Source of the DNA: Escherichia coli
GTDB taxonomy: Bacteria; Pseudomonadota; Gammaproteobacteria; Enterobacterales; Enterobacteriaceae
Reading direction: 5' to 3' (one strand)
Assembly: GCF_030013595.1 (NCBI RefSeq)
Contig: NZ_CP122769.1
Length of the DNA: 64,000 nt
A program made the position numbers. Positions 15,001 to 21,000 of this stretch are shown here, piece by piece; position 1 is the first letter of the stretch; each line of letters opens with the position of its first letter.

Positions 15001-18000
15001 ACGATCCACATTTTAATTTGCTCAGCAATTTCAAATTTTGGACTGCCCATGCTTTACCTCAGTGGCTGAATATTGATGGTTAATATCTTTAATCACCCGT
15101 AAGCACTTAGTGCATACCTTAGTTCGATTTGTCTGCTTGTCCAGAGTGTATTTAACTTCAAGTTGACCTCCAGCATTAAGCAAAGTGAGCATCTCATCTT
15201 CTAACACGCTTCGGTAAATGGTCTTGGCCGAGAGTGTGCCCGGTAAAGAGTACTCAACATAATTGTTTGAAACTCTTACCGATTTAGGGATTTTACCACT
15301 GAGCTGGGTTTCATTCGTTGAAGGCATTACAGTTACTTTAATCACAGTTGCCGGTGACCAGAAATCCTGATAACGCACTTTATGAATTTTATCAGCTCTA
15401 AGGCCTAACCACACATTTCCGGCGATAAGAACAATAAGCAATCCATAAACTGATCGTCGAATGTTACGCCTTTTAATCACAATGTCCCCCATCCCTCAAA
15501 TATCATTCTAAATAACTGCACCAGGATATCATGAGCGTAATTAATAGAATTCTTCATAACCGGGGTTTTCAGTTGAGTTTGCGGACTCTTTACTTTGCGG
15601 TTTCTCACCCTCTAGTTGAGTATCCCTGACAGGCTTGGATTTACCCATGCTCCTCTGAAAGGTATCCATAACAAACTCAATATCTTCTTCTGGCAGGCTG
15701 GTGGGTTGGTTGCTCATAGGACTTCCTCTTGTTGAATACGTTCGGCGTACAGGATGCGAACCGAAACGGTCGTGTTTTCAAACTCGTTCTCAAAAACGTC
15801 CATCCATTCCGTCCGGAATTCTTCCCCCAAAAGGTTATCGAGCCCCTGAAGAGATAATGGAAGAACGGCTGCTAGAGATCCCCCGGCTGCGAGATGAGAT
15901 GCAGCTGCCTGGAGATGCCGCCTGGCCCGGTTATCGGCAAAAGGTGGGTTCATCACGACATAATCAAACTTCTTCTGTTGATTAGACTTAGACCATGTGA
16001 GGAAGTCAGCTTCTGTCGTATCGTATCCCTTAGCCCGGGAGATAAGGCAATTCAAAGTATCAAGCTCGATGCCAGTAACGATCACACCGGCAGGGAATGA
16101 TTTAAGCAAATCCGCATGGCCAATATTAGGCTCCAGGAGGGTATCCCCTTCCCCTGCACCAAGCAGGGAAGATACATATTCGCTGATTCGGCAAGATGAA
16201 GGGTAAAACTGATGCGATACAATATCAGGCATCTCCCCTATCTGGCCGATGTAACGAATAACCTCACACGGATCATAGGAAAATGTCACATCGTATTTTG
16301 TTACTGTTGCCCCTAAGAACCGAAGGGTGTCAGCGGCAACACTCGAAGATTTGCGTTCGGCGAGAGACCCTAAAGATGTCCAGCAACTCCATTTATTGTC
16401 CCCGTCATTTTTAAACATCAGTTCAGAAAGCTGCATCCGGGTATCAAAGTCGATGCACTGCTTAAGTACAGGGAATGCCTCCAAAGATTTCTTGCTATGA
16501 GCCATACGGTCGGCAGGTAATGCCAGCGGTACGATAGCTGATAAAATATTGTTAAGCCGCTCGGCGATATCAGGGTGGACGTCAATATGCATTGATCCAT
16601 TTTTGTAAACCCTGAAACGAATACTGTTGCCATCGATGCAGATCCATTTTCTGAACCCCTCATGTTCGACCAACGCCTCAACCAATGATTTGGTGTTATG
16701 GATCGCCTTCACCTGTTCGCCACGGAAGAATGCGCATATAACGCGGAGCTCGCTCAGCGGTGAAATGCCAGACTCTTTAAAATCCACCCTTAATTTCTGC
16801 CAGGGGTATTTAGACGGCTCGCAAACTCCGGTAGTGATCATGCGGGTGGAGAACCCAAAAGCTTTGTTTGTCTTGTGACTGCGGCTCAGAGACTGGAAGA
16901 CGTCGTAAACCCTTTCTTTAATAAATTGATTGCGGTCATTAAGCAAAGCAACGACTGTGCCCACTACAGCGTCAGCTGTGAAATCAGGGATCACCTGAGG
17001 CGGCATAATATAACGGTCGGCCGTAAACTGCTTATCCCATTCGTTACGTTTGGCATCCGACATGATAGGCAAAACATCAGTGAGTGCCATAACGCGTTTC
17101 CAGTATTCTGATCTCAGAGCGTTTTCTGCGAACAAGGCATCCGCTTCTGAGATGCTGTGGTTGTAGCCTGAGAGATAAGAATAAAGTTTCTGGTGATTGT
17201 GGGTTTTGAACTGGACAGCCATGAGTTTCAACAAGCAGAGTTCATCATTATAGGACTCAACAAGATCCGCGATAATGCCGAGCTCTTTGCGCATATCTGG
17301 AAGAAATGTTTCAGGAGAGCTAACCACCAGGCTATGAGAGGTTGTTAAAGCCAGTACGCTGTGACCTGCATTATCGGGTTTAGCTTCAGAATCAAGAGAT
17401 GACATTTTACCGGTCCTTTAGAAAAAACTTTTACCAGGATAGCAACGTCGCTCAGTAACCTAATAGGTTCAGTGACACGAAAAAGTTTTTTATGTCTCTG
17501 AATAAAACTTAAAGATGTCAACTCATAGAAAGAAGCAAAAAAAAAGCCCCGCATAAACGGGGCAAGAACGATACATGGAGGTTTAAAAAAGGCGGGCAAA
17601 AAGCCTGAATCCTTAATGACTCTGACAAAACCAGCACTTTGCCAAAAGTAAATTATTCTGCGTCCGGCTGTGGGTCAGTATCCTGATCGGTCTCTTCCCC
17701 TGCCTTCTTAGCATTTTTTTTACGTGGGTATTTTGGCTTCTCACCATTAAGTTTTGCCTGACGATTCTCCGCACGGCGAAGCTGCTTGTTCTCTGATTCT
17801 GTGATCTCTTTTGAAAGATTTCTCAACATCTCCAGAGTACTGCGGTTCAACGTAATGTTGATTTCTTCGTCAGCACTTGAATCTGTCAGCTCCGGCAATT
17901 CAATATCCCCCAGTTTCTGTAATAAGCTGGTGGTGATGAGTTTGACGCCTTCTACGGCTTTTGTGGCAATAACCGGCGGAATCCGTGCTGGCTTGAAGTC

Positions 18001-21000
18001 TGAAGGTCTGACTCGTACCTGACCATGTTGGGTTTTTTTCACCGTGATGCCATTCGCATCGGCCTGCTCAAGTTCTGCGATCATCTTCTTGATACGTGAA
18101 ATTGCTTCTGTTTCGCCGAGCTCATCGATCAGTGAAAGCACGTTAACATACGAAATAGCGTCAGCATGAATCCATTTCTTGATAACAACAGAACAGGTTG
18201 TCAGGCGGATAAGAGAACTGATGGTCGTCGGGCTTTTATTTTCACGTTGAGCAATTCGTTCGAGTGACCAGCCAGCAAGAGAATGTAGGCGACGATAGGA
18301 CTCGCCAAGCGCAACAGGAGAAAGCGCAAGACCACGGTTACCATCAATGGTCGCGAGCTCACAGCCAATTTCATCTTCTTTAATCTCAACGCAAAGGATT
18401 GTGATGTCATGATCTTCATCACATGCCATCATTGCGGCTTTTAAACGGCAGTGCCCCTGGCGAACAAAAGGTACCCCATCAATGACACGTACTCGGATAG
18501 GGTCTACATAGTCACCTCGAATGTAGGCATTCTTGATGTTGTAGATGTGTTCTTCAACCTCAGGGAGCTTATAGTAATCGTCACCCATTCCCATTTCGCG
18601 GGAGTTGAAGCCTGGCGTGACCTGAATTACTGAAGGGTGGATAGCCCATGCTTTCTGGTCACTTACTTCAGTACAAAGTTCAGGGTTTGCATCACGGAAC
18701 TGTTTAAGCCCAGTGACGTAACGGCCTGTGCCAGTAACTACTGAAAAGGCAACATGGGCCGTTTTAAAGACCTTGTCATTAGCTTGCTGTGTAGGTTCTG
18801 TCAGTAAAACACTCATAGGGGCTCCGTTACATTTTTCTGCTTACTTTCTGCGTAGCGGGGATACTACCGAAAAAAAATTCATAATTTTTCGCAAAAAAGG
18901 TACTTTTTGAGCCTATTCTGATTTTTTACAAAAAAAGGTGGCTCCCCATTACTTGTGATGGCATAAAAATCGCTTCATAAACAAATACATAAATCCAAAA
19001 CATAAAGTTCAGGTATAAGTGAGGAAAAATCTTATAAATCCGAAATGCTGAAAGTCAAAACTGTGCGTCTTAAACAACTTTTTTTTGCTCCCTAAGTTAT
19101 TAGTTAAAGCCCGTGGTTAGGTACGATACCAGCACCTAAATTTCTCTCTCAGGTATAGACACTTTGACTCGACATCTCAGACACATGCCGATAATCAAAT
19201 GGGCTGGTGGAAAAACGAAACTGATGCCTTTCATCAGCCATCACTACCCACACGATCATAGTTGCCGGTGGGTAGAACCCTTTATAGGCGGTGGTGCCGT
19301 TTTTCTGAACATGTTTGCACAAAATGCATTGCTTGCAGATAGCAATCCAGACTTGATCAACCTATACAGGACTATTCAAAGACAGAAAACTAACTTTATA
19401 AATCAGGTCCAAAACTTGGCGGATAAAACCTTTGTCGAAAAGGACTACTATGAGATGAGGGACCGTTTCAACAAAACCTGTATTTCTGGTCAATCGCTTC
19501 AAAGAGCGGCTTTGTTTTACTCCCTGAATCGCCTGGGCTATAACGGTATGTGCCGCTATAACTCAGAAAGAATCTATTCAGTGCCGTGGGGGAAACATAC
19601 AGAACTGAAGCTTGACCTCAATAAAATAGACTACCTTTCATTTCGTCTTTCAGGTATTGAACTGATCACCGCTGGTTTTGAGGAGACTCTGGCCGCAACC
19701 GGTGAAGGAGATCAGATTTACTGTGATCCGCCATATGACAAAACAAGCAAAACTAGTTTTGTCAGTTACGATGGTAAACCGTTCAGCCAAAGCGACCACG
19801 TGCTGTTAGCAAATATGCTCGTTGACGCTCACAGAAAAGGCGCTGCTGTTGCGATATCAAATAGCCTGACATCATTCACTTTGGGCCTCTATGAAGAGCG
19901 TGGATTCGTCATACACAGACTCAGCGCTTACCGATCCGTAGGAAGTAAGCCGAATACACGGAAAACGGAAACAGAAATACTGGCCGTGCTGAAATAGAGT
20001 AAATTCTAATCAACTAGGCTAATCCATTCCTCAAAAGTTAATACCTCAGGGTAAGTTCGTTGAACATAAGGTATAAACTGAAGCTCTTCTATTCTCCGGT
20101 CGCCCCTCTTTCCTTCGCAAATAAATGAAATGAGTCCTTGCTGAGAAAGGCCAGTAAGGACGCTCATAAGTCTTATATTTAGACTTTTAAGCTGTAAGTC
20201 GTTATTAATGTCCTCCACTTTATGAGAGCTCTGGCCTGAACGTTTAAGATACTCGTAAACCATGAAATTCGAATTTCGTCGTTTTAACAATTTTTCGGTT
20301 ATGCATTCCTGAATGAAGTCGCCAAGAGCATCTAAAAGCGGACTGAGAACTACCGGGAAAGTTAATGTGTAACTTTGAGAAGTTTTAGACAAAGTGAATG
20401 AGTTTAGAAAGCTAAAGTTTAGTCTCTTTTTTGAATATGGAACATAAGCGACAAGAGTAGTCGACATAACAGTAAGTAAAGCTTCAAGATGGTTCACTGT
20501 TATTAAAGTGGTTTTATCTGTATTTCTAAGATTATGGAAATCAATAAACGCTACTCTTGAACGGCTAAGCCAATCTTGTACTTTAATGTCGATAGAAAAT
20601 TGCGAGATATGATTTGAACATTCATTTTGGGTGATAGGGCATGCAGACGAAAGATGGTTATGGATTATCATGCATAGCACAAAAAAAGGAAAACGGCAGG
20701 CTGTGGGGCATTGAAAACCGGTTAAAGAAAGCTTAGACGTTTCATATGCGCTTACCGGAAAAGTAACTTTTCTTAACGTTGGCTTTGACGATGTTCTTGC
20801 ATTTTTACAAATGAAACCGAGACCCAGATCATTGTGCATTTTAAAGTCCATCTCCATCATCACCTTTTAGCCTTAACTGTATGGTATTGGTATACAAAAA
20901 ATTAAAATTATAATTAATAAGATTATCATTTTTTTACAATAGAAAAGGTTCTGATAGAGGGGAATTTAAATGTAAAAGATTTATACTCGCAGATCTTTAT

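What the first reader, a model, noticed from the sequence alone, without database searches (positions are those of the whole stretch)
15714..18816. ParB-like nuclease-domain protein co-transcribed with a large adenine methyltransferase, with a second paralogous methyltransferase at 2345..3106
A 387-aa ParB/Srx-fold protein lies directly upstream, on the same strand, of a 563-aa protein whose C-terminal ~200 aa carry the same motif I and NPPF motif IV arrangement as the 274-aa methyltransferase near the window start. The N-terminal ~370 aa of the large protein are unassigned. With Dam, this segment encodes three adenine methyltransferases. ParB-domain/methyltransferase pairings are known as fusions on plasmids and phages and are thought to act in anti-restriction or self-protection; here they are split into two genes.
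Basis: partly seen in the sequence, partly recalled or inferred. Interest (0 to 1): 0.5.

Follow-up and report, generated by a model that had tools for sequence, protein, structure and literature searches.

The report
Orphan ParB-like gene beside plasmid methyltransferase
Two neighbouring backbone genes of an IncHI2 resistance plasmid encode a ParB-type DNA-binding protein and an uncharacterised adenine methyltransferase, but a conserved terminator and published expression data suggest they are separate units rather than a split ParB-methyltransferase operon, so the finding is largely ordinary.

Summary
The genes exist at the stated coordinates, on the minus strand of an IncHI2 plasmid backbone found in more than 1,100 plasmids.

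**ParB-like protein (17653..18816, 387 aa).** It has a ParB N-terminal domain plus a ParB helix-turn-helix. It has no ParA partner, and a paralogue lies at 22026..23081. The real ParA/ParB genes lie at 39.5-41.7 kb.

**Large protein (15714..17405, 563 aa).** It consists of DUF4942, a variable linker domain and a C-terminal gamma-class N6-adenine methyltransferase core. That core is homologous to the 253/274-aa methyltransferase at 2345..3106. Dam is confirmed, so "three adenine methyltransferases" holds at the motif level.

**What is not supported: co-transcription and a "split ParB-methyltransferase fusion".**
- A GC-rich hairpin followed by a T-run sits in the gap between the two genes. It recurs, with different stem sequences, in three relatives at 70%, 54% and 47% methyltransferase identity.
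- In R27, the ParB-like orthologue R0042 gives about 28 times the signal of the methyltransferase orthologue R0043. The two respond in opposite directions to temperature and to an htdA mutation.
- Six non-IncHI loci encoding the methyltransferase family have no ParB-like gene within the about 0.7-6 kb of flank examined.

The DUF4942 region matches no known fold.

Verdict: known, annotated backbone genes whose functions are untested. Interest is low to moderate.

The parts
17653..18816 (-). Orphan ParB-family DNA-binding protein, 387 aa. It has a ParB/Srx-type N-terminal domain with GHCR in place of GERR, a ParB HTH at about 165-230, and a charged C-terminal region. It is the orthologue of R27 R0042, annotated 'partition protein'.
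   Evidence: ORF. Pfam HTH_ParB. TIGR00180 (residues 89-218, E 7e-8). PHROG 1033 (E 3e-28). Family profile vs PDB 4umk (E 3e-6). Synteny with R27.
17546..17563 (-). Intrinsic-terminator-like hairpin (GCCCCG-TTTA-TGCGGGGC followed by T9) between the ParB-like gene and the methyltransferase gene.
   Evidence: Scan. Fold: -15.7 kcal/mol. Equivalent hairpins with different stems lie in the same gap of L002, L003 and L005.
17406..17545 (-). Leader and putative own promoter of the methyltransferase gene. It contains a conserved TATCCTGG (a -10-like TATCCT) about 35 nt upstream of the ATG and a conserved CTATTA about 20 nt further upstream.
   Evidence: Alignment of four lineages A2. In L003 the scan calls TTAACA-16-TATCCT. 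Promoter function is inferred, not shown.
15714..17405 (-). DUF4942 plus gamma-class N6-adenine methyltransferase, 563 aa. Layout: helical region 36-175, DUF4942 alpha/beta core 176-292, variable linker domain 298-392, methyltransferase core 396-556. It is the orthologue of R27 R0043, annotated 'DNA restriction methylase'.
15541..15717 (-). 58-aa ORF whose start overlaps the methyltransferase stop (ATGA), with an AAGAGGAAG ribosome-binding site. It is the orthologue of R27 R0044.
   Evidence: Conserved in the R27-type locus (61% identity). R0044 expression follows R0043.
19164..19997 (+). Dam-family adenine methyltransferase, transcribed divergently from the ParB-like gene. RefSeq starts it at about 19186.
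   Evidence: TIGR00571, 228 bits, above cut-off. Annotation.
2345..3106 (+). Small gamma-class methyltransferase, 253 aa from the ATG (274 aa from the upstream TTG). It is a paralogue of the linker plus methyltransferase part of the 563-aa protein and lacks DUF4942.
   Evidence: BLASTP. Pfam. PHROG and PADLOC. RefSeq 'methyltransferase'.
22026..23081 (-). Second ParB-like paralogue, 351 aa. It is the first gene of the neighbouring unit and the orthologue of R27 R0037.
   Evidence: Alignment A1 (23% identity, shared GFNxRE and RQGHxR motifs). tblastn.

Best explanation
These are two adjacent backbone genes of IncHI plasmids that are most likely regulated and transcribed separately.

**Gene 1** encodes an orphan ParB-family DNA-binding protein with no ParA partner. 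In R27 it is very highly expressed and rises under the conditions that induce conjugation. It most likely binds plasmid DNA as an organiser or regulator in the manner of KorB, rather than acting as a nuclease or as a subunit of the methyltransferase. This step is inferred.

**Gene 2** sits behind a conserved terminator and has its own weak promoter. It encodes a member of a widespread phage and plasmid family: DUF4942, a variable linker domain and a gamma-class NPPF methyltransferase core. It is translationally coupled to a 58-aa ORF.

The methyltransferase most likely uses S-adenosylmethionine to make N6-methyladenine in DNA as an orphan enzyme. That could protect the plasmid against restriction in new hosts or mark its DNA. 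The catalytic motifs and the fold are shown here. The substrate, the target sequence and the biological role are inferred.
For: - **Identity of the locus.** IncHI2 backbone, 1,110 plasmid records. The gene order is the same in R27.
- **ParB family.**. Bona fide ParA/ParB and ParM lie elsewhere in the window, at 39530.. and 44890...
- **Methyltransferase core.** E425, G429, N486, P487 and P488 are invariant. Q399, Y401, E447, D467 and F468 are near-invariant in 89 homologues.
- **Family size.** 350 clusters at 50% identity with E<1e-30; among the 150 best hits listed, the non-fragment proteins are full length at about 500-600 aa.
- **Terminator.** It is conserved with covarying stems in four lineages. 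From the shuffle rates in those calls, the chance expectation is roughly 0.1 per gap, or about 2e-4 for all four (my estimate).
- **R27 arrays (PMC7366339).** R0042 6132/2278 versus R0043 217/394 and R0044 42/124 (25 C/37 C). In the htdA mutant at 25 C, R0042 rises 3.35-fold and R0043 1.5-fold, while the neighbours R0040, R0041 and R0045 rise 8- to 19-fold.
- **Context elsewhere.** Phage homologues of the methyltransferase sit in early or replication regions without a ParB gene.
- **Natural insertions.** IS91 between the genes and IS3 inside the methyltransferase gene occur in natural plasmids.
Against: - No transcript mapping exists for the IncHI2 locus itself. Array signals depend on the probe, and some read-through of the terminator is possible.
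- Adjacency of the two genes is kept down to 44-47% protein identity within IncHI-like backbones. That leaves room for a functional link.
- Motif I of this protein reads GHA rather than GxG. Only 3 of 89 homologues have A at that position.
- No binding site for the ParB-like protein was found.
Confidence: 0.6

Rival explanations
1. The two genes form one operon and act together as a split version of the ParB-methyltransferase fusions. The ParB domain would load or nick DNA and the methyltransferase would modify it, for anti-restriction during plasmid establishment.
For: The genes share a strand and are adjacent, and the adjacency is conserved across IncHI1, IncHI2 and more distant IncHI-like backbones. 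ParB-methylase fusions, and ParB homologues alongside methyltransferases in leading regions, are documented (PMC5512222; PMC7736820).
Against: - A conserved terminator lies in the gap.
- Expression of the R27 orthologues differs about 28-fold and is regulated in opposite directions.
- The methyltransferase family lacks a ParB neighbour outside IncHI.
- Phage homologues of the ParB-like protein have no consistent methyltransferase neighbour.
- The ParB-like protein carries an HTH and has a paralogue.
- The methyltransferase is gamma-class, with no N6_N4_Mtase hit.
- The locus lies between two replicons and the Tra2 region, not next to an identified oriT.
- An IS91 insertion between the genes is tolerated.
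Confidence: 0.1
2. The ParB-like protein is a local KorB-like repressor of the methyltransferase genes on either side of it: Dam, divergent, and DUF4942-methyltransferase/orf58, downstream. The pair would then be linked by regulation, not by co-transcription.
For: In R27, whenever R0042 rises at 37 C in the htdA mutant (3.74-fold), R0041, R0043 and R0044 fall (-3.25, -2.89, -4.09). In the wild type at 25 C versus 37 C, R0042 is +2.69 while R0041, R0043 and R0044 are -1.8, -1.8 and -2.95. The adjacency is conserved. There are 25-nt direct repeats in the ParB-like/Dam intergenic region and a conserved element upstream of the methyltransferase gene.
Against: In the htdA mutant at 25 C, R0042 and R0041 both rise (3.35-fold and 7.8-fold), which does not fit simple repression. 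No shared operator or recurring palindrome was found. The evidence is correlation from a single microarray study.
Confidence: 0.2
3. The 563-aa protein methylates RNA (rRNA or tRNA adenine or guanine) rather than DNA.
Against: DNA methyltransferases score almost as high, with higher identity (M.TaqI 26%, M.BseCI 20%, HsdM, CamA). The domain recurs inside giant phage and plasmid proteins (PHROG hits), which I take to be polyvalent proteins of the DarB type described. PADLOC hits are to DNA methyltransferase models. In phages the gene sits among replication and recombination genes and other DNA methylases.
Confidence: 0.08
4. The IncHI2 copy is a catalytically weakened or dead methyltransferase kept for another role.
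For: Motif I reads I-G-H-A where the family has A-G-x-G, and motif X reads PSS where the family has PTP. Expression of the R27 orthologue is low. IS3-disrupted alleles circulate.
Against: All invariant catalytic and SAM-site residues are kept: E425, G429, E447, D467, F468 and NPPF. The ORF is intact in nearly all of about 1,100 plasmids. M.TaqI, an active enzyme, also has a non-canonical motif I (my own knowledge).
Confidence: 0.07

Closest known systems
M.TaqI / M.BseCI / HsdM-type gamma-class N6-adenine DNA methyltransferases
   Different: There is no C-terminal target-recognition domain and no partner specificity or restriction subunit nearby. Instead about 390 family-specific N-terminal residues (DUF4942 plus a linker domain) have no structural neighbour outside the family.
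ParB-methyltransferase fusions of plasmid leading regions (Bce_0392 'ParB-methylase'; M.EcoGIX as I recall its architecture)
   Same: A ParB-superfamily domain and an adenine methyltransferase on a mobile element. The presumed role in dealing with host restriction is also shared (PMC5512222, PMC7736820).
   Different: Here there are two genes separated by a conserved terminator and expressed discordantly. The ParB protein carries an HTH. The methyltransferase is of a different class. The locus is not next to an identified oriT. The pairing is absent outside IncHI.
Chromosomal and plasmid ParB/Spo0J/Noc/KorB proteins
   Same: N-terminal ParB/Srx domain plus ParB HTH, aligned to H. pylori ParB and to Noc.
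   Different: There is no ParA partner and no parS-like repeats were found. GERR is replaced by GHCR. The score is below the TIGR00180 cut-off. The plasmid's real ParAB module is elsewhere. The closest relatives are orphan ParB-like proteins of phages such as 9NA/Sasha and lambda-like Klebsiella phages.
R27 (IncHI1) genes R0042 'partition protein' and R0043 'DNA restriction methylase'
   Same: Direct orthologues (74% and 70% identity) in the same gene order, from repHIA to the Ig-like RSP gene.
   Different: Nothing of substance differs. Their functions have not been tested either. Only array expression data exist (PMC7366339).
DarB-type methylase modules of polyvalent proteins
   Same: Both methyltransferase domains in the window hit PHROG families of 1,200-3,900-aa proteins, which I take to be polyvalent proteins of the DarB type. 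A small domain precedes the methyltransferase core, as LPD36 does in DarB-like proteins (PMC5512222).
   Different: There is no helicase fusion, and these are stand-alone proteins. Equivalence of the linker domain to LPD36 was not tested.

Membership tests
ParB/RepB/Spo0J partition proteins (TIGR00180) | Score above the curated family cut-off | tested here: not met
   32.5 bits against a cut-off of 58.45; E 7e-8.
ParB/RepB/Spo0J partition proteins (TIGR00180) | ParB N-terminal domain followed by the ParB HTH | tested here: met
   Family profile vs 4umk aligns residues 90-234, E 3e-6. Pfam HTH_ParB covers 165-230.
ParB/RepB/Spo0J partition proteins (TIGR00180) | Canonical GERRxR (CTP-binding box II) | tested here: not met
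   Aligned to GERRLRA of 4umk, the family has an invariant Q-G-H-C/T-R. CTP binding itself cannot be tested with these tools.
ParB/RepB/Spo0J partition proteins (TIGR00180) | Adjacent ParA-type ATPase and parS sites | tested here: not met
   The neighbours are Dam and the methyltransferase. ParA/ParB lie at 39530..41730. No recurring palindromes were found.
ParB-methyltransferase fusion proteins (Bce_0392 / M.EcoGIX type) | ParB domain and methyltransferase in one polypeptide, or at least one transcription unit | tested here: not met
   There are two ORFs 247 nt apart with a conserved terminator between them. The R27 orthologues are expressed discordantly.
ParB-methyltransferase fusion proteins (Bce_0392 / M.EcoGIX type) | Same methyltransferase class as the fusions (N6_N4-type, from my own knowledge) | tested here: not met
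ParB-methyltransferase fusion proteins (Bce_0392 / M.EcoGIX type) | Location in the leading region next to oriT | tested here: inconclusive
   The locus lies between repHI2, the RepB-family rep gene and Tra2. The oriT of this plasmid was not located.
Gamma-class N6-adenine DNA methyltransferases | Motif order X-I-II-III-IV with (N/D)PP(F/Y) | tested here: met
   HQFYPSS, LEPNIGHA, IE, DF, NPPF. NPP is invariant in 89 homologues.
Gamma-class N6-adenine DNA methyltransferases | Class I Rossmann methyltransferase fold | tested here: met
Gamma-class N6-adenine DNA methyltransferases | Methyl transfer to adenine N6 in DNA, and the target sequence | not testable with these tools
   This needs a methylome or an enzyme assay.
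Pfam DUF4942 (PF13708) | Match to the family model | tested here: met
   E 4.9e-22 over residues 96-290. All 31 aligned homologues match.
Dam family (TIGR00571), for the gene at 19164..19997 | Score above the curated cut-off, and the DPPY motif | tested here: met
   228.1 bits against 114.85. CDPPY is seen in the translation.

The most novel reading that the evidence does not exclude
The DUF4942 module is not an ordinary target-recognition domain. It has no structural relative outside the family. Its alpha/beta core is as conserved as the catalytic core, and it carries an invariant polar cluster (S174, H177, T179, N180, H273, N285). It may therefore be a second functional unit of a distinct class of mobile-element adenine methyltransferases, for example one that recognises a DNA structure or a replication intermediate, or one that has its own catalytic activity. 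Separately, the abundant, conjugation-co-regulated orphan ParB-like protein may be a CTP-independent KorB-like silencer that sets the level of the flanking methyltransferase genes.
Probability: 0.15. Interest if true: 0.6.

Novelty: new member of a known kind. Interest (0 to 1): 0.3.

Why it matters
IncHI plasmids are major carriers of mcr-1 and multidrug resistance. Their backbones encode at least three predicted adenine methyltransferases and two orphan ParB-like proteins of untested function.

Knowing whether these methyltransferases protect the plasmid from restriction, and what the abundant conjugation-linked ParB-like protein binds, would bear on host range and establishment of these plasmids.

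The DUF4942-methyltransferase family is large (at least 350 clusters at 50% identity) and occurs in phages, phage-plasmids and plasmids. I found no study that characterises it.

The specific claim of the finding, a split ParB-methyltransferase operon, does not hold. What remains is a routine but useful annotation refinement.

Tried and rejected
2. **Binding sites for the ParB-like protein.** The repeat search of 14.0-24.6 kb gave only weak two- or three-copy matches. A script for perfect palindromes across the window found none that recur.
3. **DUF4942-only architectures.** A third word-indexed protein search with the N-terminal profile returned only methyltransferase-fused, full-length proteins and fragments. 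A 299-aa PHROG (38825) that matches DUF4942 was not followed up.
4. **Defence-system membership.** PADLOC gave only generic methyltransferase models for the methyltransferases and nothing for the ParB-like protein.
5. **Literature.** 'DUF4942' appears in 4 papers, judged from their titles to be annotation-level mentions; I did not open them. 'R0042' appears only in the R27 array paper. I found no methylome or functional study of these IncHI genes.
6. **Strong sigma-70 promoter for the methyltransferase gene.** The scan finds none in the window's gap. There is only a weak conserved -10-like TATCCT.
7. **Distant upstream neighbours.** The upstream genes of distant methyltransferase homologues (L008, L011) were tested as diverged ParB proteins and rejected.

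
Full report
**Where the window comes from.** The 3.6-kb region matches 1,110 PLSDB plasmids at 95% identity or more. All the best-scoring records are IncHI2A, MOBH, conjugative plasmids of Escherichia, Salmonella, Enterobacter and Klebsiella. In pSE08-00436-1 the region lies between repHI2 and a RepB-family replication gene followed by the Tra2 transfer genes. These are therefore backbone genes of a well-known plasmid family. RefSeq annotates them as 'hypothetical protein' or 'DNA-binding protein' and 'DUF4942 domain-containing protein'.

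**The observation.** Both ORFs exist, on the minus strand. The 387-aa ORF is at 17653..18816 and the 563-aa ORF at 15714..17405, with a 247-nt gap between them.

The 387-aa protein belongs to the ParB family:
- PHROG 1033 'ParB-like partition protein', E 3e-28.
- TIGR00180, E 7e-8, below the curated cut-off.
- Pfam HTH_ParB, E 2e-4.
- A profile of ten homologues aligns to H. pylori ParB (4umk, E 3e-6) across both the N-terminal domain and the HTH.

In that alignment the GERR box of ParB corresponds to an invariant Q-G-H-C/T-R. The canonical CTP-binding arginine pair is therefore incomplete.

The 563-aa protein has DUF4942 at residues 96-290 (E 5e-22) and weak methyltransferase hits at the C-terminus. 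Over its full length it matches PHROG 6263 'DNA methyltransferase' (E 1e-112). Residues 348-515 align to the methyltransferase at 2282/2345..3106 with 27% identity, E 2e-12. Dam at 19164..19997 is clear-cut. The descriptive part of the finding is therefore right, with two corrections: the strand, and the DUF4942 assignment for part of the N-terminus.

**The methyltransferase family.** An exhaustive search found 350 clusters at 50% identity with E<1e-30. Among the 150 best hits listed, the non-fragment proteins cover most of the query at about 500-600 aa. In an alignment of 89 members:
- E425, G429 and N486-P487-P488 are invariant.
- Q399, Y401, E447, D467 and F468 are nearly invariant.
- The motif order is that of the gamma class: X (HQFYPTP), I (LEPSAGxG), II, III, IV (NPPF/Y).
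- The window protein has GHA in place of GxG in motif I, which only 3 of 89 members share. It keeps every invariant position.

**The N-terminal 390 residues.**
- A sequence profile finds nothing in the PDB.
- The 50 Foldseek/AFDB50 matches shown are all members of the same family.
- The DUF4942 alpha/beta core (176-292) is as conserved as the catalytic core: 44% versus 42% mean pairwise identity. The domain just before the catalytic core (298-392) is also present in the small paralogue and is the most variable, at 25%.
- The DUF4942 core therefore does not behave like a hypervariable specificity domain. Its role is unknown.

**Are the genes co-transcribed?** Probably not in any simple way. Three lines of evidence point the same way.

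1. A hairpin lies in the gap. A GC-rich hairpin followed by nine T's sits at 17563..17546 on the coding strand (-15.7 kcal/mol). In three relatives with 70%, 54% and 47% methyltransferase identity, the equivalent gap also carries a hairpin plus T-run, each with a different stem sequence:
   - L002 5818-5836
   - L003 5895-5912
   - L005 5868-5885

   The shuffle controls of those scans give about one such site per kb on both strands. A same-strand hit in each of four gaps of 170-280 nt would therefore be expected with probability of roughly 2e-4 (my estimate). Downstream of the hairpin the four lineages share TATCCTGG about 35 nt before the start codon, which is a plausible weak -10 element.

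2. Published microarray data for R27 disagree with a shared transcript. R27 has exactly the same gene order. The values below come from PMC7366339, Tables S3 and S4.

   | R27 gene | Product | 25 C | 37 C | htdA mutant at 25 C |
   |---|---|---|---|---|
   | R0042 | ParB-like | 6132 | 2278 | 3.35-fold up |
   | R0043 | methyltransferase | 217 | 394 | 1.5-fold up |
   | R0044 | 58-aa ORF | 42 | 124 | not expressed |
   | R0040, R0041, R0045 | flanking genes | – | – | 8- to 19-fold up |

   The authors note that R0042 is induced under all conditions that promote conjugation.

3. Natural plasmids tolerate insertions at this locus. One carries an IS91 insertion between the two genes. Another carries an IS3 insertion inside the methyltransferase gene.

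**Is the pairing conserved?** Only within IncHI-like backbones.
- The block of ParB-like paralogue 2, Dam, ParB-like 1 and the methyltransferase is kept down to 44-47% identity, but it travels as a whole.
- Six non-IncHI loci encoding the methyltransferase family have no ParB-like gene in the about 0.7-6 kb of flank available. They are prophage early regions, an SSU5-like phage-plasmid, a Pseudomonas phage and two other genomic loci.
- Phage homologues of the ParB-like protein sit next to replication genes, with no consistent methyltransferase neighbour.
- The plasmid's true partition modules, ParA/ParB and ParM, lie at 39.5-45.9 kb.

**Most likely mechanism.** These are two separate units. 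The ParB-like protein is an abundant, conjugation-co-regulated DNA-binding protein. A KorB-like organiser or regulator role is inferred; no binding site was found. The methyltransferase and the 58-aa ORF, which is translationally coupled to it (ATGA overlap), are expressed at a low level from their own promoter. The methyltransferase most likely acts as an orphan DNA adenine methyltransferase.

One weaker variant deserves testing. In R27, R0042 is anti-correlated with R0041, R0043 and R0044 in three of four comparisons, which would fit local repression by the ParB-like protein. The htdA mutant at 25 C contradicts it.

**Comparison with known systems.** The analogy with ParB-methyltransferase fusions (PMC5512222; PMC7736820) fails on four counts: single unit, methyltransferase class, domain content of the ParB protein, and conservation of the pairing. 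Location relative to oriT was not resolved. The methyltransferase is a member of an uncharacterised but very common mobile-element family. The genes have been annotated in R27 for many years as 'partition protein' and 'DNA restriction methylase'.

**Verdict.** Novelty is low, with a modest open question about DUF4942 and the orphan ParB-like proteins.

Noticed in passing
window 22026..23081 (-), with 21095..21811 and 20006..20863: A second ParB-like paralogue (351 aa, 23% identical to the first, same GFNxRE and RQGHxR motifs). It heads its own unit with a 66-aa ORF, a zinc-finger-like protein and a 285-aa protein, and that unit converges on Dam. The R27 orthologues R0037-R0040 rise 4- to 19-fold in an htdA mutant.
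   Followed up: partly
window 15541..15717 (-): A 58-aa acidic ORF whose ATG overlaps the methyltransferase stop codon (ATGA), with a good ribosome-binding site. It is conserved in R27 (R0044, 61% identity), and its expression follows that of the methyltransferase. It has no family match.
   Followed up: partly
window 18877..18901 and 18915..18939: Two 25-nt direct repeats (76% identical, 38 nt apart). Each contains a T5-6/A5-6 near-palindrome. They lie in the AT-rich divergent promoter region between the ParB-like gene and Dam and could be an operator.
   Followed up: no
window about 17434..17445 (-); alignment A2: TATCCTGG is invariant in four diverged lineages, about 35 nt upstream of the methyltransferase start codon. 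It contains a Dcm site (CCWGG) and a -10-like TATCCT.
   Followed up: partly
563-aa protein, residues 176-292 versus 298-392: The DUF4942 alpha/beta core is as conserved as the catalytic domain (44% versus 42% mean pairwise identity) and has invariant S174, H177, T179, N180, H273 and N285. The domain next to the catalytic core is the variable one (25%).
   Followed up: partly
L020 (NZ_LT599829.1), L022 (NZ_CP117034.1), L021 (NZ_CP042895.1): Natural IS insertions occur at this locus. IS3 splits the methyltransferase gene, IS91 sits in the ParB-like/methyltransferase gap, and IS1 truncates the 58-aa ORF. All three plasmids are typed as conjugative.
   Followed up: partly
R27 genes R0153/R0154 (not located in the window): R27 has another 'partition protein' next to a 'cytosine methylase'. 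Both rise strongly in the htdA mutant (15.6-fold and 11-fold) and at 25 C. This may be a better candidate for a co-regulated ParB/methylase pair than the one in the finding.
   Followed up: no
window 4560..6980 (+) and about 11256..13712 (-): Two large Ig-like-domain proteins (RSP-type; DUF4165 and Big_3 domains in relatives) flank repHI2. The R27 homologue is reported to be needed for IncHI conjugation (title of PMC6764697).
   Followed up: no
window 18817..19100: There is a one-base length difference from pSE08-00436-1 within an otherwise 100% identical 3.6-kb match. I presume it lies in one of the homopolymer runs of the intergenic region.
   Followed up: no
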